Assembly: GCA_963744515.1 (NCBI GenBank) | Contig: CAVUTN010000008.1 | Coordinates: forward strand, 22,172 to 86,171 | DNA length: 64,000 bases | Direction of reading: 5' to 3' | DNA from: an uncultured Actinomycetes bacterium | GTDB taxonomy: Bacteria; Actinomycetota; UBA4738; HRBIN12 | Part shown: piece after piece, positions 42,054 through 50,047 of the stretch | Layout: each line of letters opens with the position of its first letter | Position numbering within the stretch: position 1 is the first letter of the stretch | Notes under the pieces: generated by a model | What the model was told of the DNA's origin: nothing | What the model saw: only the letters and a program-made list of their open reading frames with translations | The model's database searches: none | Position numbers and translations under genes: made by a program

Positions 42054-43083
<1,030 letters not shown>

Positions 43084-43101
43084 GCCGAAGCCCAGCCGCG
43101 C

Positions 43102-43424
43102 CTAGCCTGCCGCGCCTTGCCGCGGGCGAACCATCCCTTCACCGTGTCGCCCGCGAAGAACCACCCGACCCCGAACGCGATGAAGCCGAACAGCGCGAAC
43201 AGCACGATCGCGAACCCGCGCGTCACCTCGAGGAACCCGACCGTGACGGGCGTCCCGGGCGGGGCCTCGCTGTCGCCGATGTTCGCGATCTCGGTGGCGA
43301 TCCCCCACACGCACACGACGGCGAGGAGCAGGAAGGCGACCCCCAGCACGAACGAGATCCCTTCGACCCAGTCGTGCGCGGCGGTCGCCTCGCTCAGCCG
43401 GCGGCGGAAGGTGCGGTAGGTCAT
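43102..43424 (-). CDS. Two-TM hypothetical membrane protein (end approximate)
   Basis: Hydrophobic segments ISFVLGVAFLLLAVVCVWGI and FAIVLFALFGFIAFGVGWFF; starts 5 nt after the Crp-family stop. Confidence 0.65.
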
Positions 43425-43429
43425 CGCGC

Positions 43430-44136
43430 TCACAGCCCCGCCAGCTTGGCGAGCCCGTTGATCTTCAGCAGGACGAACCGCGGCCGTCGCGCTCGACGAA
43501 GCCGCGGCGCTGGAAGTCGGACAGGATCCGCGTCACGTTCTCTCGGCTGCCCCCGCACAGGCTCGCCAGGTCCGCATGGGTCACGACCGAGGGCACGAGG
43601 AGCGCCGTCCGGCGGGAGCTCGTCGAGCGAGGGTGAGACGAGCTGGAGGAGACGCTTGGCGACCCGGCCCTTCAGATCGAGATAGAGGAGGTCCTCGACG
43701 AAGGCCTCATGTGATTGCACCTGGCGAGCCAGCGCTCGCAGGAGCGCCCTGGAGGCCGACGCCTGCCCGTTGACGAACTCCAGGAACGTCTCCGAGGGCA
43801 CGACCCAGACCGAGGATTCCTCTCGAGACGAGGGCGGACGCGGTTCTCGGCATGTCCCCCAGCACGCCGAGTTCGCCGAAGAACTGTGGGGAGTCCAGGG
43901 TTGCATGGAGCTGTCGTTGCCCGTTCGCAGAGGCCGAGCTGATCTCCACCCGCCCATCTGATCAGGAAGAACACCTCCGGCGAGGGATCTCCCTGATGGA
44001 ACAGGTAGGTGCCGCGCCGGTAGCTCCGGGTGTTTCCCCGCTCCGCCAGTGCGCCGATCACCTCGGGCGGGGTGCCCGCGAACAGGGGCGTGCGCGCCAT
44101 CATCGCCTCGAGCTCGGACGCCACCGCCCTCCCCAT
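43430..44136 (-). CDS. Crp/Fnr family transcriptional regulator (several frameshifts)
   Basis: YLFHQGDPS, FFGELGVLGDMPRTASA cNMP pocket, DLKGRVAKRLL, THADLASLCGGSRENVTRIL HTH. Confidence 0.9.
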
Positions 44137-44182
44137 GGCGCGTAGCCTACCCATGTCACCTCACGGGAGCGACCCGCAGACA

Positions 44183-44216
44183 GAACGAGACCCGGCCCGA
44201 GGGCCGGGTCTCGTTC
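44183..44216 (-). terminator. Perfect 15-bp stem-loop after the Lys-rich peptide gene
   Basis: GAACGAGACCCGGCC-CGAG-GGCCGGGTCTCGTTC. Confidence 0.75.
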
Positions 44217-44221
44217 GAAGG

Positions 44222-44361
44222 TCAGTGGTGACGCCTACTCTGCCCTTCTTCTTGGACTTCTTGAGCCGCTTCAGACTCTTCTTCTCCACGCGGGCTGCCG
44301 TGTCGGTGCTCGACGTCTTCGTCGACGATGCGGCCTTCGGAGTGATCTTCTTGTCCGCCAC
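44222..44361 (-). CDS. Small Lys/Ser/Thr-rich peptide (about 46 aa if one G is restored at ~44243)
   Basis: Strong RBS GGAGGTGA before GTG 44361; MADKKITPKAASSTKTSSTDTAARVEKKSLKRLKKSKKKG; a TGA at 44222 just before the hairpin becomes in frame with a 1-nt homopolymer correction. Confidence 0.65.
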
Positions 44362-44454
44362 CTGATTCACCTCCCCGATCCCCCAGGTCCCATCGGTTCG
44401 GGACATCGGATATTGCATGCCGTGCGCATCATCCTCTCAGGAGGCCGGGGGAAC

Positions 44455-44517
44455 TGTGCTGCGCGTCACGCGTTCTCCCGTGACCCCCGTCACCACATGA
44501 GAGTGACGCACGTCACA
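44455..44517. promoter_or_regulatory. Three tandem Crp-type boxes upstream of the peptide gene
   Basis: TGTGC-N6-TCACG (44455-44470), CGTGA-N6-TCACC (44479-44494), AGTGA-N6-TCACA (44502-44517). Confidence 0.7.
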
Positions 44518-44731
44518 TTTCCTGATCGAGCTCGGGGAGGGCGAGGGGGTCCGGTCGCGGGGAGCAGGCGCCACAGAACAGGGCGTCCTCGACGATGAGG
44601 GCCTGCGTGACGTCACGGGACCGGAAGAGCTCGAGAACGAACGGCAGCGTTTCCACGTGATCGGCGCAGATGCCCCGTCCGCAGAATCGGCAGCTTCCCA
44701 CCGCCGTCTTCCGGCAGTGCCAGCAATCCAT
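44513..44731 (-). CDS. Small Cys-rich zinc-finger protein (B-box-like)
   Basis: MDCWHC...CRFCGRGICADH...FCGAC; RBS AAGGA before ATG. Confidence 0.75.
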   Translation of the reverse strand: MDCWHCRKTAVGSCRFCGRGICADHVETLPFVLELFRSRDVTQALIVEDALFCGACSPRPDPLALPELDQEM

Positions 44732-44752
44732 ACACGGTTCCTTTCGCTCGGC

Positions 44753-46926
44753 TCAGTGCTGCGAGGTTCTGCCTACGGTGACCGCCTGTGCAAGCGAGCC
44801 ACGCCGGAAGGCACCCGCAACGACCTGATCGAATCCCTCTGCGTCGAGCCTGAAGACGCGCGTGGGGGTCCGGGCGATCACGGTCGCGGTCCTGGGCACG
44901 TCCGCGAGCAGTGCGACCTCGCCGAAGTGGCTTCCGGGTCCCAGGGTGTTGACGACCTGCCCGTCACGGATCACCTCGACCTGCCCGGTCCCGATCACGT
45001 AGAAGGCATCACCCGGTTGACCCTGCTCCACGAAGACCTCACCGGGGGCGACGTTCAGCCATCGTCCGTGGTCGAGGATCATGGCGATCTCGGTCGAGCC
45101 GAGTGAGGCGAACGGCGGAAGCCCGCGGAGCTCCGCGGCTTGCTGCAAGCGTCGGCTGGAATTCGGGAACGTGCACCATGTCCGACAGGAGCCGGTCGAA
45201 GGTGCTTTCGTCCACCTCGAACAGCTGCGCATCCGTGGTGGGGCGCACGGTCGCGGCCCGGGGGGCACCGTCGATCAACCCGAGCTCGCCGAACGTGTCG
45301 CCCGGCGCGAGGGTACGGATCACTCGCTCCTTCCCGGTTTCGAGATCCTCCTCGAGGACCTCCAGGCTCCCGGTGCGAACGATGAAGAAGGCATCCGGTC
45401 GATCCCCCTGCCGGAAGACCGGCTTGCCCGCAGGGTACCCCCTCAGGTTCACGCGGCCGGCGATATCCGAGAGCACGTCCTCGGGGAGGTCGTCGAACAT
45501 CGCCGACCGGTCGAGCAGCTCGGCGGCTTCCACACGCCACCGGGTCTGGAGCCGGAAGCGTACCTTGTCGAGGAGGCTCATCACCTTCTTCTTCGCCGCG
45601 CGCGCGAGCGCGATCAGCCCACGCAGGATCGGGCCCGCGATGAACAGTCCGAGCACGACGAGGAGCGCCTTGCCGATGACGCCCCCATCCCACAACTCCC
45701 GGATCAGTCCTCCGAAGATCGTTTCCCAGAAGAAGATCGACGTCCAGAGGCAGAACACCGTGAAGGCGATGCCGACGATCGCGTAGGCGGCCAGGCCGAC
45801 CTCCTGCTTCGTGATGCGCTCCCGTCCCCGGATCTTGCGCCATAGGTCGTAGCGGATGAACTGCAGCGAGCGTGGCCTCAGGTCCGGTACCTGGATCAGA
45901 TCCGCCAGGATGTAGTACCCGTCGAGCTCGAGGAGCGGTACCAGGTTCAGGAAGATCACGAAGTAGTTGATGACCGCCCACGTGAAGAGGAAGGGTGCGG
46001 CCGGCGACTCGGGGAACGCCCAGAGGTAGATCGAAGCGAAGGCCGACACGACGAGTTCCGCGAACGGGCCCGCGGCCGACTGCACGATCCGCTTGCCCCG
46101 GTCCAGCATGAGGGAGTCCGAAGCCTCGACGAAGAAGGCCGGGGACCCGAAGTAGATCATGAAGCCGGCACTCTTGATCTTCCGCCCCTGGTGAACGAGA
46201 ACGACCGCATGACCGAGCTCGTGCACGAACGTCAGGATGTAGTCCATGCCGAGCAGGATCAGCGTCTGGGCCGCGGGAGAGTCGCCCCCGAGATCGAAGC
46301 GATGGCTCTGCGTAGACGGCCACGAACGCCACGAGCCCCAGGACGGCAAGCACGAGCGCGGCGACCGCGACCGCCGGGATGAAGAAGAACCGCAGCCCAT
46401 GACGATAGAGCCAGGCGACGAGCTTGTGGGCTCCCGTCCAGTCGATCGAGAGCGTCTTGGCGAACTCTCGGGCCTTCGTCCTCGCCATCGTCGTGGGATG
46501 GGCCGCTCGCCGGACGATCTCCGTCGTGTCGACGTAATGCTCGGTCAGGAAGTTCCCGATCCGAAGCTGTCGGACCAGATCCACGACCCCGTCGAGCGCG
46601 AGATCGCCGGACTCCTGGAAGGACTCGACGACGATCTCCTTCACGGTCCGGGTCCCGTCCATGAGCGCGAGGAGCCTCGACGTCCTCGGGCCGGAGCTGG
46701 TAGTGCACGAGGTCCGTCGGGTTCGCGATCATGGCGTAGTCGTTGCCCCACCGGAGTTTGAACGCCTTCACCTCGATGTCGTCACGCAGGTGCGGGCGAT
46801 ACTCGGCCGGGTCCACCCGGTTCGCGAGGTCGGACCACAGTCCGCGGCCGTCGTGCTCGCGCGTGTCCCGATCGAGCTTCGCCGCGACGGTCGCGTAGAG
46901 CCTCCTCCGGAGCTGCGAAGGGTCAT
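44753..46926 (-). CDS. PqqD/RRE-like domain + M50 (site-2) metallopeptidase + two cNMP-binding domains (frameshifts near 46900, 46680, 46320, 45130)
   Basis: LLALMDGTRTVKEI (RRE-like), HELGH, AAGPF, NLVPLLELDG, GELGLIDGAPRAATV, GEVALLADVPRTATV. Confidence 0.82.
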
Positions 46927-47623
46927 GTGTCGGAGGCGCGACTCGCGCTCGGCCCGCAGGCGCTGATCGATCGTGCCGTAGAGCGAGAGCCGCGCTGGGG
47001 GCCGGCGCTTGGAAGCGAAGAGATTCCCGATCACGCCGCCGGCAAGGAGCGCGATCAGGATCGCCGCGATCACCGTCTCCCAGGTGATCCCGCCACTCTC
47101 GGGCGCTGCCAGCGACCGGGTGACCTCGGCCGACTCGCCGAAGATCGTCGACGACCCCGAGGACGAACCGAGCATCCTCCGGGATCGTCTTCACCACGTG
47201 CGCATCGACCTCGAAGGAGATGTTGGCCCCACCGGTGGTCACGATCACGTCGGCGCCGCTCACCCGCAGGTACGCGCTCGTCGCCACCGCGCCGGTGCCG
47301 ACGATGAGGTCCTGTTCGCCGACGATCAGCTTGTTGTCCTCGATGTCGAACCGCAGCTGATCGAGCTCCTGGTTCCCGGACATGATCGACGCCTCGAGGA
47401 GGTGGAGCGCCTGCCACCCACCGGGCATCGTCCCGTCGACACGGATCGTGAGCGTCGAGCCCGACGCGAGGGCACCCGACACCTGGCCGTTGACGCTCGG
47501 ACCGCTCGTCGGGCTCGGCGAGGTGGACTGCGCCGAGGCGGGACCCGCGGTCACGATCACCGCCACGAGGGCGGCGAGCAGCAACGACCCCTGCAACGCC
47601 GGTCGACGGATCACGGAGCGCAT
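46923..47623 (-). CDS. Exported protein with C-terminal membrane anchor (frameshift near 47140)
   Basis: Signal peptide ending GPASA, beta-rich core, TM VIAAILIALLAGGVIGNLFA followed by SKRR; ATGA overlap with the M50 gene. Confidence 0.7.
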
Positions 47624-47650
47624 CTTCGACCCGGGGGCGTCGGGACGCAA

Positions 47651-47689
47651 CGTGACGGAGGTCACCCCCCGTCCGTGCGCGACGTCACC
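47651..47689. promoter_or_regulatory. Two tandem Crp-type boxes in a divergent intergenic region
   Basis: CGTGA-N6-TCACC (47651-47666), CGTGC-N6-TCACC (47674-47689), 23 bp apart. Confidence 0.65.
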
Positions 47690-47758
47690 GCTCCTAGCAC
47701 GGACCCGGACGTAGGGTTCGCCGGAGGTTGAGCACCACATCGAGGAGGAGGTGCGGAG

Positions 47759-47929
47759 ATGCTGAGCGGAGAGATGGCCCGGTACCAGATCGGCGACCGC
47801 GTTCGCGAGGCCGAGGCCGACCGCCTTGCCCGGTCGACCCGCAGGAGCAGGGCCGCGGACTCGCGGGGCGTGGCCCGGCGCATCGGTCGTGCCGCCCTGG
47901 CGGCCGCCACCTGGCCCATCAAGCACTAG
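47759..47929 (+). CDS. 56-aa small protein missing from the ORF track
   Basis: RBS GAGGAGGAGG; MLSGEMARYQIGDRVREAEADRLARSTRRSRAADSRGVARRIGRAALAAATWPIKH*. Confidence 0.7.
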   Translation: MLSGEMARYQIGDRVREAEADRLARSTRRSRAADSRGVARRIGRAALAAATWPIKH

Positions 47930-48088
47930 CGTTCACGGCCCGGACATCCACGCGCCTCCGGGCCTTCATGGGCCCCCGATACGTTCCATCCGCCAAGAGA
48001 GAGCGGTTACGCCCCCTCTCGAGAGCGGGGGGTTCGGTCTCCGACCGGGCCCCCCGCGCCCCCCTCCCGCCAAGAAGCCGCGCAACGC

Positions 48089-50047
48089 TCAGGCGCCACC
48101 CGAGGAGAGGTTCTGGATCTCCAACGGCGGCAGGCGATCCGCCGGCTCGAACCCCAGGATCGTGCCGTAGAACGTGAGCTCGGCCGACAGTCCGCGCGAG
48201 ATGTTCTCCACCTTGCGGAACCCGTGCTGCTCGCCTTCGAACAGGAGGTAGGCGTATGGCAACCCCCGGTTCTCCAGGGCCTTGACGATGACCTCCGCCT
48301 GCGCGGGCGGGACCACCTCGTCCTCGTCGCCCTGCAGGATCAGCAGCGGGCTGGACAGGAGCTCGGCGTGCCGGACCGGCGAGCGTTCGGCCCACAGGTC
48401 GGCCGCCTCGGGCCACGGACCCACCAGGAGGTCGAGGTACTTGGACTCGAACTTGTGGGTGGTCTCGGCGAACGGCTCGAGATCCGAGACGCCGAAGTAG
48501 CTCGAGCCCGTCGCGAACGCGTCCCGGAACGTGAGCGCGCACAGCGTCGTCCATCCCCCCGCGCTCCCACCGGAGATCATCAGCCGCTCGGGGTCCGCGA
48601 GACCCCGCTCGACGAGGTGCTCGGCGGCCGCCACCGCGTCGTCGACGTCGGCCACGCCCCACCGGCCGTACAGGCTCTCGCGGAAGGCCCGGCCGTAGCC
48701 GGTGCTGCCGCGGTAGTTCACGTCGACACACGCGATCCCGCGGCTCGTGAAGAACTGCAGCTCGAGGTCCAGCTCCGGCCACACCTCGGACGTCGGTCCC
48801 CCGTGGACGTGCACGAGCAGCGGTGGGCGTTCGCCGTCGGGGGCGGTGGCGACCGCGTTCGTCGGCGGGTAGTAGTGCGCGAACGCGGTCTGGCCCTCGG
48901 TGGTCGGGAACTCGATCGGTTCGGGCACGGACAGGTACCCGGGGTCGAACCCCACAACGTCGTTCGCGCGCAGGACCTCGACCGCGCGCGTCGAGAAGTC
49001 GAGCGACACGACCTGCGTCGGCGTGGTCGGGCCGCCGGCGATGAACGCCAACCGCTGCCCCGAGACGCTGAGGGCCGCCTCGAAGGTCGCGTACGGCAGG
49101 TCCAGATCCAGGAGCTCTCGGGTCGTCGGATCGAGCAGCGCGAGGTGGTGGATGCCCCGCTCGCGGTACGCGCAGACGATCCTCCCGTCCGAGAGGAAGC
49201 CGTACGACGCGTAGCCGAACAGCCACATCGGCACGGCGAACTCGGCCGACATCGGGGCCAGGTTCGTAAGCTCACCGTCGGGCCCCTCCCGGTAGAGGTT
49301 CCACCAGTCGGTGCGATCGGAGACGAAGGTCAACGAGCCGTCGGGCGCCCAAGCCGGTTGGAAGATCGACTCGCGGTCACCGCCCGCGACCGCGCGCGAC
49401 GCGCCCGCCGATCCGTCGGACGCCACGTCGACCACGGCGAGCTCGCTGCCGTCCCAGGGCATCCGCGGGAAGTCCCAGGCGATGAACGCGACTCGCCCGC
49501 CCTCGGGCGACCAACGCGGGAACGCGTAGAAGTCCCGCCCGGATGCGAGCGTCGACGTCGACGATCCGTCGGCGGCGATCGCGACGAGCTCGTTGACGGG
49601 TGGCCCCTGGCCTTCGTGACGTTCGTGGACCGCCGCGATCCACCGGCCGTCGGCCGACACGTCCATATCGGCGTAGCGCAGACCGCGCGGGGTCGCGGGT
49701 TCGGGGGTGATCGCGGTGGGTTCGCCGCCGAGCTCCTGCCGGTACAACCGTTGGTCCTCGAGGTTGGCGAAGTAGGTGGTCGTCCCCCAGACGGCGTACG
49801 AACCGCCGCCGTACTCGTGCACCAGCGTCCGAACCGAGACCCCGGCCGGCGTCACGTCGAACGGCTCCCCGCCCGGATCCGAACGCACGACGACGGAACG
49901 ACCGCGTTCCTGGGGCCGGAGCTCGAGCCACGTGGTCGCGTCGCCGACCGCCCTCGTCTCGCTCAGCACCACCGAGGCCTCCGCGGCGCGATCGGCGGTG
50001 ATCGGCGACGGCCAGGACCCGTACGGGATGCGTTGCGCGTCGCTCAT
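48089..50047 (-). CDS. S9 family (prolyl oligopeptidase/acylaminoacyl) peptidase
   Basis: PYGSWPSPI, HGGPT, NYRGSTGYG, GGSAGG, QGDEDEVV, GEQHGF. Confidence 0.93.
   Translation of the reverse strand: MSDAQRIPYGSWPSPITADRAAEASVVLSETRAVGDATTWLELRPQERGRSVVVRSDPGGEPFDVTPAGVSVRTLVHEYGGGSYAVWGTTTYFANLEDQRLYRQELGGEPTAITPEPATPRGLRYADMDVSADGRWIAAVHERHEGQGPPVNELVAIAADGSSTSTLASGRDFYAFPRWSPEGGRVAFIAWDFPRMPWDGSELAVVDVASDGSAGASRAVAGGDRESIFQPAWAPDGSLTFVSDRTDWWNLYREGPDGELTNLAPMSAEFAVPMWLFGYASYGFLSDGRIVCAYRERGIHHLALLDPTTRELLDLDLPYATFEAALSVSGQRLAFIAGGPTTPTQVVSLDFSTRAVEVLRANDVVGFDPGYLSVPEPIEFPTTEGQTAFAHYYPPTNAVATAPDGERPPLLVHVHGGPTSEVWPELDLELQFFTSRGIACVDVNYRGSTGYGRAFRESLYGRWGVADVDDAVAAAEHLVERGLADPERLMISGGSAGGWTTLCALTFRDAFATGSSYFGVSDLEPFAETTHKFESKYLDLLVGPWPEAADLWAERSPVRHAELLSSPLLILQGDEDEVVPPAQAEVIVKALENRGLPYAYLLFEGEQHGFRKVENISRGLSAELTFYGTILGFEPADRLPPLEIQNLSSGGA

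What the first reader, a model, noticed from the sequence alone, without database searches (positions are those of the whole stretch)
44222..44361. Separately expressed, highly basic 46-aa peptide: candidate substrate
A strong RBS (GGAGGTGA) precedes GTG at 44361. The peptide is bipartite: an S/T-rich N-half (AASSTKTSSTDT) and a K-rich amphipathic C-half (EKKSLKRLKKSKKK), resembling a leader/core layout. As assembled it reads through the terminator hairpin. Restoring one G in the GGG run gives ...KKKGQSRRHH* with the stop 5 nt before a perfect 15-bp hairpin. Alternatives are a nucleoid-binding or antimicrobial-type peptide.
Basis: partly seen in the sequence, partly recalled or inferred. Interest (0 to 1): 0.7.

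Follow-up and report, generated by a model that had tools for sequence, protein, structure and literature searches.

The report
Polycationic repeat peptide beside cAMP-sensing protease
This is a real, previously undescribed 41-residue, very basic peptide gene that in over a hundred uncultured soil actinobacterial genomes always sits next to a peptide-docking, cyclic-nucleotide-sensing membrane protease, so it is most likely that protease's own substrate; the copy in this window is blurred by a one-base assembly error.

Summary
The ORF is real, with a GTG start at 44361 and GGAGG 8 nt upstream. A 15-bp hairpin (44216-44183) follows it.

Four near-identical short-read contigs show that the window carries an extra G at 44240. 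Without it the protein is 41 aa and ends ...KKKGK* (TAG 44237-44235).

The peptide belongs to an unannotated family:
- There are about 100 distinct sequences, 35-91 aa long, with net charge +8 to +25.
- Each has the N-terminal motif MA[DE]KK[IV]xPK, a junction (GDR)AA[TA]RV, and a fast-evolving tandem array of basic 3-13-residue units.
- It lies next to the M50-cNMP protease gene in three different gene orders.
- It is duplicated in tandem in some genomes.
- In two distant genera the same slot holds an NHLP-type RiPP leader fused to similar repeats.

The protease is a homolog of the daptide RRE-dependent intramembrane leader peptidase. Its N-terminal domain models as an RRE fold.

Conserved Crp boxes precede the peptide gene.

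Best reading (0.55): a Crp/cAMP-controlled, RRE-docked substrate whose cleavage frees a polycationic tail.

The parts
44235..44361 (-). Small peptide gene as it most likely is: GTG 44361 to TAG 44237-44235, 41 codons once the extra G at 44240 is discounted. Product: MADKKITPKAASSTKTSSTDTAARVEKKSLKRLKKSKKKGK.
   Evidence: It is identical in amino acids to the gene in L021-L026, apart from the frame break.
44240..44240 (-). Extra G relative to four near-identical contigs. It shifts the frame so that the assembled ORF runs on to 44161.
   Evidence: This is probably a long-read indel error.
44367..44374 (-). Shine-Dalgarno site GGAGGTGA. GGAGG ends 8 nt before the start codon.
   Evidence: GGAGG is conserved in the alignment of 32 loci and an SD-like site is present in 116 of 120 family genes.
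44387..44404 (-). Small 5'-UTR stem-loop (GTCCC-N8-GGGAC) between the promoter region and the SD.
   Evidence: In one search the same position in relatives holds different complementary arms (GGGCCC/GGGCCC, GGCTC/GAGCC, GGTCC/GGACC). Function unknown.
44456..44516 (.). Three Crp-type boxes upstream of the peptide gene: GTGACGCACGTCAC at 44503-44516, GTGACCCCCGTCAC at 44480-44493, and an imperfect GTGA-N6-GCAC at 44456-44469. The first box contains the stop codon of the 72-aa gene.
   Evidence: 4 exact GTGA-N6-TCAC in 64 kb against 0.93 expected, 2 of them here. In one search, 2-5 such boxes are conserved at this place in nearly all 32 aligned loci.
44183..44216 (-). Intrinsic-terminator-type hairpin: 15-bp GC-rich stem, 4-nt loop, weak T tail. 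It starts 18 nt after the corrected stop.
   Evidence: In one search every one of 31 relatives has a strong GC hairpin at this place with unrelated stem sequences. The consensus terminator scan missed it because there is no T run.
44513..44731 (-). Cys-rich 72-aa protein (CxxC...CxxC...CxxH...CxxC), the most conserved gene of the cassette.
   Evidence: (146 of 201 genomes of the order, 59-86% identity for full-length matches).
44753..46927 (-). RRE-like / M50 site-2 protease / 2x cNMP-binding protein. It is 723 aa in L021; here it is split by three 1-nt insertions at 46676, 46311 and 45149.
43430..44136 (-). Crp/Fnr-family regulator (234 aa in L021; here it has four 1-nt indels). It has its own TAGGCT -10 box (44149-44144) 7 nt before the ATG.

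Best explanation
The gene encodes a 41-residue ribosomal peptide that is the dedicated ligand, and most likely the substrate, of the adjacent RRE-S2P-cNMP membrane protease.

Anatomy:
- Residues 1-10 (MADKKITPKA; family motif MA[DE]KK[IV]xPK) are a short, unstructured, highly conserved 'leader'.
- A K/S/T/A-rich linker ends in the junction motif (GDR)AA[TA]RV.
- A C-terminal polycationic helix follows. Across the family it is a rapidly evolving tandem array of basic 3-13-residue units: KRLKKSKKK here; RQTK, KVQ, KRT, RKA, KATH, KKM, RVK, GAR, AKKTL, KAVRAT elsewhere.

Proposed mechanism:
1. The neighbouring Crp regulator, with cAMP, acts on the 2-5 Crp boxes in front of the gene and sets peptide synthesis from its own promoter. 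A terminator ends the transcript.
2. The N-terminal motif docks as an added strand on the protease's N-terminal RRE (PqqD-like) domain.
3. The cNMP-binding domains gate the HExxH/LDG intramembrane active site.
4. Cleavage near the junction separates the leader from the polycationic tail.
5. The tail then acts by charge on a polyanion such as nucleic acid, ribosome, polyphosphate or anionic membrane.

Shown here:
- The gene, its conservation and its bipartite pattern.
- Its own SD and terminator.
- The conserved Crp boxes.
- Its obligatory adjacency to the protease gene.
- The protease's homology to RiPP leader peptidases and its RRE-like fold model.

Inferred:
- Binding, cleavage and the cleavage site.
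- The direction of the cAMP effects.
- The target of the tail.
For: (1) The gene is real and conserved.
- The family has about 102 distinct sequences, median 45 aa, net charge +8 to +25.
- An SD-like site is present in 116 of 120 genes, and third codon positions vary under invariant residues.
- An exhaustive HMM search of 1.84 billion representatives finds only 51 clusters, all 37-110 aa.

(2) Co-location with the protease.
- All 22 loci found with the peptide have M50cNMP-Cys72-peptide-Crp, although the flanks differ.
- All 30 loci found with Cys72 in the order carry the peptide, as do about 106 of 110 overall.
- In G340 two copies lie directly after the protease gene. In G259 a copy lies divergently upstream of it, with a TGTGA-N6-TCAC box between.

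(3) RiPP-like features.
- The leader is conserved and the core is hypervariable.
- Tandem paralogs occur in L069, L072, L112, L130, L142, L144 and L192.
- In G219 and G327 the gene in the same slot has an NHLP-clan leader (NF038399, E 2.9e-12, 46.5 bits, cutoff 40) followed by GDR..AASRV and (AGKTL)n or (AxSKx)n arrays.

(4) The protease.
- NF041824 daptide intramembrane metalloprotease: E 1.3e-42 over residues 64-431.
- YydH/LiaK RiPP metalloprotease: E 2.4e-13.
- Two cNMP_binding domains.
- The AF2 model of residues 30-200 has beta-beta-beta-alpha-alpha-alpha topology. The top eight PDB fold matches are PqqD, TbiB1 with its leader, lasso B1 and TigE.
- RRE-S2P fusions that remove leaders are documented for daptides (10.1101/2023.03.08.531785).

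(5) The peptide model has residues 1-17 as coil and 18-39 as a helix, which fits strand docking plus a basic helix.

(6) Crp boxes are enriched and conserved upstream.
Against: - The cassette contains no modification enzyme, transporter or immunity gene. If this is RiPP-like, it would be a 'cleavage-only' system, which is unusual.
- Low-complexity tandem basic repeats are not typical RiPP cores. They are typical of non-specific polyanion binders.
- The peptide has no hydrophobic segment, unlike classical S2P substrates.
- In most lineages it is its own transcription unit.
- The RRE fold matches have weak E-values (0.02-0.2), and the model is only moderately confident (pLDDT 67.6; 70-85 in the RRE part).
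- The NCBIfam hit is well below the equivalog cutoff (146 against 300 bits).
- All genomes are uncultured MAGs of related lineages, so part of the synteny is shared descent.
Confidence: 0.55

Rival explanations
1. A free-standing small nucleic-acid- or ribosome-binding protein (histone-H1/Hc2-like, or like the tiny basic actinobacterial ribosomal proteins). It would belong to the Crp regulon and sit near the protease only through inherited synteny. The protease would play no part in its life.
For: - Extreme basic charge, with K+R at 34% of residues and almost no aromatic residues or Cys.
- The repeat tail evolves as charge-only binders do.
- A repeat tail gives a weak compositional hit to histone H1-like Hc2 (E 0.041).
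- The gene has its own promoter region with Crp boxes and its own terminator.
Against: - Adjacency to the protease gene persists through three gene orders, and the flanks turn over.
- The strongly conserved 10-residue N-terminus is not explained by charge binding.
- NHLP-type leaders occupy the same slot in other genera.
- No sequence relative exists among solved structures, ribosomes included, at E <= 10, and there is no Pfam or NCBIfam hit.
Confidence: 0.17
2. An RRE-binding regulator rather than a substrate. The peptide would dock on the protease and switch or target its activity toward another substrate (for example the Cys-rich 72-aa protein or a membrane protein) without being cut. Its basic tail would hold the complex at the anionic membrane.
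For: - The same co-location and RRE evidence as the main explanation.
- The Cys-rich protein is even more conserved, is always present, and sits immediately after the protease gene.
- The peptide lacks a membrane segment.
Against: - Known RRE-S2P fusions cut the peptide they bind.
- Tandem duplicates and hypervariable repeat cores look like products rather than regulators.
- Nothing marks Cys72 as a substrate.
Confidence: 0.15
3. A secreted or released cationic antimicrobial peptide (bacteriocin-like), processed by the protease.
For: - Some tails are classic amphipathic cationic designs: (KKL)3, (KKM)3, and KKSLKRLKK here.
- The protease family includes bacteriocin/RiPP maturases.
Against: - The cassette has no export signal, ABC transporter or immunity gene.
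- Most tails, such as (RQTK)n, (GAR)n and (KATH)n, are not amphipathic.
- The system is a near-universal single-copy chromosomal cassette of the order (146 of 201 genomes), unlike strain-variable bacteriocins.
Confidence: 0.06
4. Not a functional product: a chance ORF, or a regulatory upstream ORF whose translation only tunes read-through of the hairpin into crp.
For: - The ORF lies directly upstream of crp, with a hairpin between them.
- The assembled copy is frameshifted.
Against: - Amino-acid-level conservation across more than 100 loci, with synonymous variation.
- The stop lies 15-45 nt before the hairpin.
- crp has its own conserved TAGGCT/TACGCT box.
- The peptide gene moves with the protease gene, not with crp, in G340 and G259.
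Confidence: 0.03

Closest known systems
Daptide precursors (MpaA) and their RRE-dependent intramembrane leader peptidase MpaP (Ren et al. 2023, 10.1101/2023.03.08.531785)
   Same: A short ribosomal peptide with a conserved N-terminal motif is encoded next to a site-2 (M50) protease that carries an N-terminal RRE domain, and several precursor copies can occur per locus. The protease here hits the daptide protease model NF041824 at E 1.3e-42.
   Different: - The daptide modification enzymes (oxidative decarboxylation, aminotransferase, methyltransferase) are absent.
- There is no ELExMEAP motif, no aliphatic core and no invariant C-terminal Thr.
- The core here is a polycationic tandem repeat.
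- The protease has two extra cNMP-binding domains.
- The locus carries a Crp regulator and Crp boxes.
- The score is far below the equivalog cutoff (146 against 300 bits).
NHLP / Os1348-clan RiPP precursor peptides (NF038399, TIGR04509)
   Same: In two distant genera (G219, G327) the gene in the same slot after the Cys-rich gene has a bona fide NHLP-clan leader (46.5 bits, cutoff 40). It is followed by the same junction (GDR..AASRV) and basic repeat arrays.
   Different: The window's peptide has no NHLP leader and no hit to these models. Its leader is only about 10 residues. There is no GG cleavage motif, no PCAT transporter, and no radical-SAM or cyclodehydratase partner.
YydF/YydH-type epipeptide systems (LiaK/YydH HExxH membrane metalloproteases)
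   Same: A small peptide is matured by a membrane HExxH protease of the same superfamily (E 2.4e-13).
   Different: There is no radical-SAM epimerase and no ABC exporter. The peptide is of a different type.
Regulated intramembrane proteolysis by site-2 proteases (RseP, RasP, Rip1)
   Same: The catalytic core is the same: HExxH plus NxxPxxxLDG in a membrane domain, present here as HELGH and NLVPLLELDG.
   Different: Classical substrates are transmembrane anti-sigma factors trimmed first by a site-1 protease. This peptide is soluble, has no hydrophobic segment, and would be selected by an RRE rather than PDZ domains.
Lys/Ala/Thr-rich repeat DNA binders (chlamydial Hc2, C-terminal tail of mycobacterial HupB, histone H1 tails)
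   Same: The composition and tandem basic repeats are similar, so polyanion binding by charge is a plausible action of the tail.
   Different: The only hit is compositional (E 0.041). The peptide is much shorter, has a conserved docking-type N-terminus, and is tied to a protease.

Membership tests
RRE-dependent RiPP-type precursor peptide (general definition) | A short ORF encoded beside a protein that carries an RRE (PqqD-like) domain. | tested here: met
   The ORF is adjacent to the protease gene in about 106 of 110 loci and in three gene orders. The RRE-like domain is supported by beta3-alpha3 topology, top fold hits to PqqD, TbiB1 and lasso B1, and profile coverage from position 17 of NF041824.
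RRE-dependent RiPP-type precursor peptide (general definition) | A conserved leader (recognition motif) followed by a variable core. | tested here: met
   M1, A2, K4, K5, P8, K9 and A23, R24, V25 are invariant in A4. The tail is hypervariable in unit and copy number.
RRE-dependent RiPP-type precursor peptide (general definition) | Post-translational modification enzymes in the same cluster. | tested here: not met
   The cassette genes are an exported protein, the protease, a Cys-rich 72-aa protein, the peptide, Crp and a 2-TM protein. No modifying-enzyme domain was found. So it is not a RiPP in the strict sense unless cleavage is the only step.
RRE-dependent RiPP-type precursor peptide (general definition) | Physical binding of the leader to the RRE, and removal of the leader. 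| not testable with these tools
   There is no complex prediction tool and no biochemistry. Read and transcript data were closed.
Daptides | ELExMEAP leader motif, aliphatic core, invariant C-terminal Thr, and MpaB/C/D/M-type enzymes. | tested here: not met
   The peptide sequence has none of these. No such enzymes are in the locus. The protease scores 146 bits against a cutoff of 300.
NHLP / Os1348 clan precursors | A match to the NHLP leader models above their cutoff. | tested here: not met
   The window-type peptides give no NCBIfam hit. Only the positional equivalent in G219 passes.
Classical S2P (RIP) substrates | A transmembrane helix that is cut within the membrane. | tested here: not met
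   There is no hydrophobic stretch. L, I, V, M and F together are about 13% of family residues and are interspersed with K/R. The model has a coil plus a basic helix.
Known small basic ribosomal or nucleoid proteins | Sequence relationship to a described family or a solved structure. | tested here: not met
   Pfam gives no family hit (one 0.21 chance match for the frameshifted read-through). NCBIfam gives none. A profile search against all PDB sequences gives 0 hits at E <= 10.
Crp regulon member | A TGTGA-N6-TCACA-type operator in the promoter region, conserved in orthologous promoters. | tested here: met
   Two exact boxes and one imperfect box lie at 44456-44516 (4 found against 0.93 expected in the window). 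They are conserved across 32 loci. Binding by the adjacent Crp protein was not tested.

The most novel reading that the evidence does not exclude
This is a new kind of second-messenger output. cAMP would act twice, through Crp on transcription and through the cNMP domains on an RRE-docking intramembrane protease. It would then release, from an unmodified ribosomal precursor, a polycationic tandem-repeat peptide that acts inside the cell as a charge-based global effector (for example by silencing ribosomes or the nucleoid for dormancy). The system would be near-universal in a large uncultured order of soil Actinomycetota. RiPP-type leader/RRE recognition would have been recruited here for signalling rather than for natural-product synthesis.
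Probability: 0.25. Interest if true: 0.85.

Novelty: new variant of a known kind. Interest (0 to 1): 0.72.

Why it matters
- RRE-fused site-2 proteases are so far known only as leader peptidases of daptide natural products.
- Here the same recognition logic appears in a conserved chromosomal cassette with no tailoring enzymes. The cassette has cyclic-nucleotide sensor domains on the protease, a dedicated Crp regulator, and an unusual polycationic tandem-repeat 'core'.
- If the peptide is the substrate, this is a directly testable case of ligand-gated intramembrane proteolysis of a soluble peptide. It would also be a new output of cAMP signalling in abundant, uncultured soil Actinomycetota.
- It gives genome annotators a new small-protein family (MA[DE]KK[IV]xPK ... 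AA[TA]RV ... basic repeats). Gene callers currently mis-start, extend or miss it.
- It shows that comparison with short-read contigs can correct indel-ridden long-read MAGs.

Tried and rejected
- **Consensus promoter/terminator scan.** It found nothing because the hairpin lacks a T run. Direct folding and comparison showed a conserved terminator-type hairpin.
- **Pfam and NCBIfam on the peptide.** No family hit. The YCII 'hit' at E 0.21 comes from the frameshifted read-through.
- **PDB sequence profile search.** Nothing found.
- **First regex scan for family members.** It missed 41 of 80 loci. An HMM plus an SD-anchored ORF listing recovered nearly all. Three loci (L114, L146, L154) remain without a detected member within 800 nt, and L099 is too short.
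- **Reads and transcripts.** Neither the base at 44240 nor expression could therefore be checked.
- **Literature.** No paper in the library links site-2 proteases, cNMP domains and RREs apart from the daptide paper.
- **PKA-like [KR][KR]xT phosphosite repeats in (KRQT)n tails.** Rejected as a family feature because many tails (KVQ, KKM, GAR) lack Ser/Thr.
- **Attenuator/uORF for crp.** Rejected (see rivals).
- **Distant Cys72-like genes (43-50% identity; G281, G454, G442).** These lack the protease and the peptide nearby, so they were not counted as the cassette.

Full report
**1. What is in the sequence**

On the minus strand a GTG at 44361 follows GGAGGTGA (44374-44367).

- The assembled frame reads VADKKITPKAASSTKTSSTDTAARVEKKSLKRLKKSKKKGRVGV... 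and stops only at 44161 (66 codons).
- It therefore runs through a perfect 15-bp hairpin with a 4-nt loop at 44216-44183. That segment folds far better than shuffles (-57.9 kcal/mol, z = -4.2).
- The consensus terminator scan missed the hairpin because it has no T run.

**2. The frameshift**

The search for homologous proteins returned close orthologs that all end 1-3 residues after the KKKG (…KKKGK, …KKRGK, …KKKGAK, …KKKGTR). I fetched the contigs that encode the closest one.

- Four independent assemblies (L021, L022, L023, L026) are about 96% identical to the window over this stretch.
- They read AAGAAGGGCA-AGTAA where the window reads AAGAAGGGCAGAGTAG.
- The window thus carries one extra G (44240).
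- Without it the gene is 41 codons, ends …KKKGK, and stops at TAG 44237-44235, 18 nt before the hairpin.

Over 5.5 kb the window is 93% identical to L021 and differs by many isolated single-base indels.

- Three of them break the protease gene (46676, 46311, 45149).
- Four break crp (43961, 43829, 43598, 43481).
- Both genes are intact in L021 (723 and 234 aa).

Two further points fit long-read indel errors rather than a decaying locus.

- The genome is a 19-contig, 2.3-Mb bin scored only 58% complete.
- Many relatives are 'MFD' MAGs with very long contigs.

**3. A conserved, unannotated family**

A six-frame search of relatives and ORF extraction showed the same small gene in many genomes. 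Its layout is:

- MA[DE]KK[IV][TSAQ]PK at the N-terminus.
- A K/S/T/A-rich linker.
- An AA[TA]RV junction, often preceded by GDR.
- A tail made of tandem basic units.

The units differ between lineages. Examples are (RQTK)4-5, (RETK)4, (RTTK)4, (KATH)5, (KKM)3, (KKL)3, (KVQ)4-6, (RKA)5, (KRT)4, (RVK)5, (GAR)8, (KRVHA)5, (AKKTL)10, (KAVRAT)8 and (KKTRVGA)8.

Family statistics over about 102 distinct sequences:

| Property | Value |
|---|---|
| Length | median 45 aa (35-87 in that count; up to 91 aa in L128) |
| Net charge | +8 to +25 |
| Composition | K 23.5%, A 18%, R 10.5%, T 10% |
| Cys / aromatic residues | almost none |
| Start codon | ATG in 79, GTG in 41 |
| SD-like site | 116 of 120 genes |

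- Codons for invariant residues vary at the third position.
- There is no Pfam or NCBIfam family and no relative among all PDB sequences at E <= 10.
- Every database name is 'hypothetical protein'.
- An exhaustive profile search of 1.84 billion representative proteins gives only 51 clusters, all 37-110 aa.
- The window's genome has one copy.
- The AF2 model (with alignment) has residues 1-17 as coil and 18-39 as one helix, pLDDT 74.

**4. Context**

The opposite is found.

- All 22 loci found by scanning species-representative genomes with the peptide motif carry the block M50-cNMP / Cys-rich 72 aa / peptide / Crp. The protease is only 52-64% identical across them and the outer flanks differ.
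- Starting instead from the Cys-rich protein, 146 of 201 genomes of the order have it.
- All 30 loci returned from that search have a peptide gene just downstream.
- Of 110 loci from two collections, 97 are found by an HMM and 9 more by an SD-anchored ORF listing. One is cut by a contig end and three are unresolved. The two collections partly overlap in genomes.

Outside the order the link to the protease gene survives rearrangement.

- In G340 two peptide genes lie directly after the protease gene, while the Cys-rich gene lies upstream.
- In G259 a family member lies divergently upstream of the protease gene, with a TGTGA-N6-TCAC box between them. It reads MAIKPKKPGK… with (NKNESRQTRKLAT)n repeats.
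- Tandem duplicates occur in L069, L072, L112, L130, L142, L144 and L192.

**5. An independent pointer to leader/core logic**

In G219 and G327, the slot after the Cys-rich gene holds a longer ORF.

- Their protease is about 40% identical (shown for G219).
- The first ~63 residues of the G219 ORF pass the curated cutoff of the NHLP-clan RiPP leader model NF038399 (E 2.9e-12, 46.5 bits, cutoff 40).
- This leader is followed by GDR…AASRV/AAKV and then (AGKTL)n or about 22 units of A[AG]SK[VLMI].

The junction motif and repeat array are thus shared, while the leader is exchanged for a recognised RiPP-type leader.

**6. The partner protease**

The intact ortholog (L021, 723 aa) has:

- Two cNMP_binding domains (E 4e-45) and a weak Peptidase_M50 match.
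- HELGH and NLVPLLELDG motifs.
- A match of residues 64-431 to NCBIfam NF041824, 'daptide biosynthesis intramembrane metalloprotease' (E 1.3e-42; 146 bits, below the 300-bit equivalog cutoff).
- A match to the YydH/LiaK RiPP metalloprotease model (E 2.4e-13).

I modelled residues 30-200 with a 19-sequence alignment.

- Three strands are followed by three helices, with pLDDT 70-85 in that part.
- The eight best PDB fold matches are RRE proteins: PqqD 5sxy, TbiB1 with its leader peptide 5v1u/5v1v, lasso B1 6jx3 and TigE 8vpo.
- Foldseek probability is 0.92-1.00 and target-normalised TM is 0.61-0.66 for the single-domain RRE chains (0.16 for the 448-residue TigE). E-values are only 0.02-0.2.

[quoted passage not shown] It also states that the co-occurring short ORFs share a conserved N-terminal motif and that the leader is removed by this RRE-dependent peptidase. 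The tests above were made independently of it.

**7. Expression signals**

The 150 nt between the Cys-rich gene and the peptide gene hold two exact GTGA-N6-TCAC palindromes (44503-44516, 44480-44493) and one imperfect one (44456-44469).

- The whole 64-kb window has four exact ones against 0.93 expected. A third lies at the head of the same locus (47652).
- In an alignment of 32 loci, 2-5 such boxes are conserved in nearly every locus, followed by a small covarying stem-loop and GGAGG.
- Every relative has a strong GC hairpin 15-45 nt after the stop, with unrelated stem sequences. This argues for a real terminator.
- crp then has its own TAGGCT/TACGCT box a few bases before its ATG.

In this lineage the peptide gene is therefore its own transcription unit, probably under the neighbouring Crp. 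In G327 the intergenic space is about 55 nt without boxes, so there the gene is probably co-transcribed with the protease operon. The transcription start and the sign of regulation are not known.

**8. Interpretation**

The best-supported explanation (0.55) is that the peptide is the RRE-docked ligand, and probably the substrate, of the cNMP-gated protease.

- Residues 1-10 would act as the recognition leader.
- The (GDR)AA[TA]RV junction is the likely processing region.
- The polycationic repeat helix would be the released product.

What the tail does is open. Its charge-only, slippage-driven evolution points to a polyanion target.

Against a strict RiPP reading, the cassette has no tailoring enzyme, transporter or immunity gene, and repeat cores of this kind are unusual.

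The rivals are:

- A protease-independent nucleoid or ribosome binder (0.17).
- A non-cleaved RRE-binding regulator (0.15).
- An antimicrobial peptide (0.06).
- A non-functional or uORF reading (0.03).

**9. Novelty and verdict**

- The peptide family is undescribed.
- The kind of system (RRE-S2P plus a small precursor) is known from daptides.
- The cNMP gating, the Crp coupling, the lack of tailoring enzymes and the polycationic tandem-repeat core make it a new variant of a known kind.
- All carriers are uncultured Actinomycetota MAGs, so nothing has been tested at the bench.

Noticed in passing
window 44387-44404 (minus strand): A small stem-loop (GTCCC-N8-GGGAC) lies in the 5' UTR just upstream of the SD. 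Relatives have different but complementary arms at the same place (GGGCCC/GGGCCC, GGCTC/GAGCC, GGTCC/GGACC). This suggests a conserved RNA structure of unknown role.
   Followed up: partly
window 44503-44516: The stop codon TGA of the Cys-rich 72-aa gene is part of the first TGTGA-N6-TCAC box. The operator therefore overlaps the end of the upstream coding sequence in this and most related loci.
   Followed up: partly
window 44134-44149 (minus strand): The crp ATG (44136) is preceded by TAGGCT (44149-44144) only 7 nt upstream. TAGGCT/TACGCT is conserved in relatives. crp is probably transcribed as a leaderless or near-leaderless mRNA starting right after the peptide gene's terminator.
   Followed up: partly
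window 42900-48400: Many isolated single-base indels appear relative to a 93%-identical short-read contig. They break the M50-cNMP gene (46676, 46311, 45149), crp (43961, 43829, 43598, 43481) and the peptide gene (44240). MoaA (42054-43083) is also split between two frames. Gene calls in this whole window should be treated as frameshift-prone.
   Followed up: partly
L190/L193 (G219) and L194 (G327), just downstream of the Cys-rich gene: Longer positional equivalents have an NHLP/Os1348-type RiPP leader, a GDR..AASRV junction and long arrays of (AGKTL) or (A[AG]SK[VLMI]) units. The G219 copy is cut by a contig end, and its repeat end seems to sit on another contig (L195).
   Followed up: partly
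window 44513-44731; L049-L184: The Cys-rich 72-aa protein is more conserved (59-86% identity for full-length matches across the order) than the protease (52-64%). It has only a sub-threshold DUF2180/zinc-ribbon match. More distant homologs (43-50% identity) in G281, G454 and G442 occur without the protease or the peptide.
   Followed up: partly
L069, L072, L112, L130, L142, L144, L192: Two tandem, diverged copies of the small peptide gene occur in one locus. Each has its own SD.
   Followed up: no
window 47652-47665: A further exact GTGA-N6-TCAC palindrome lies at the head of the locus, between the exported-protein gene and a divergent small ORF. The whole cassette may therefore answer to the same Crp.
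   Followed up: no
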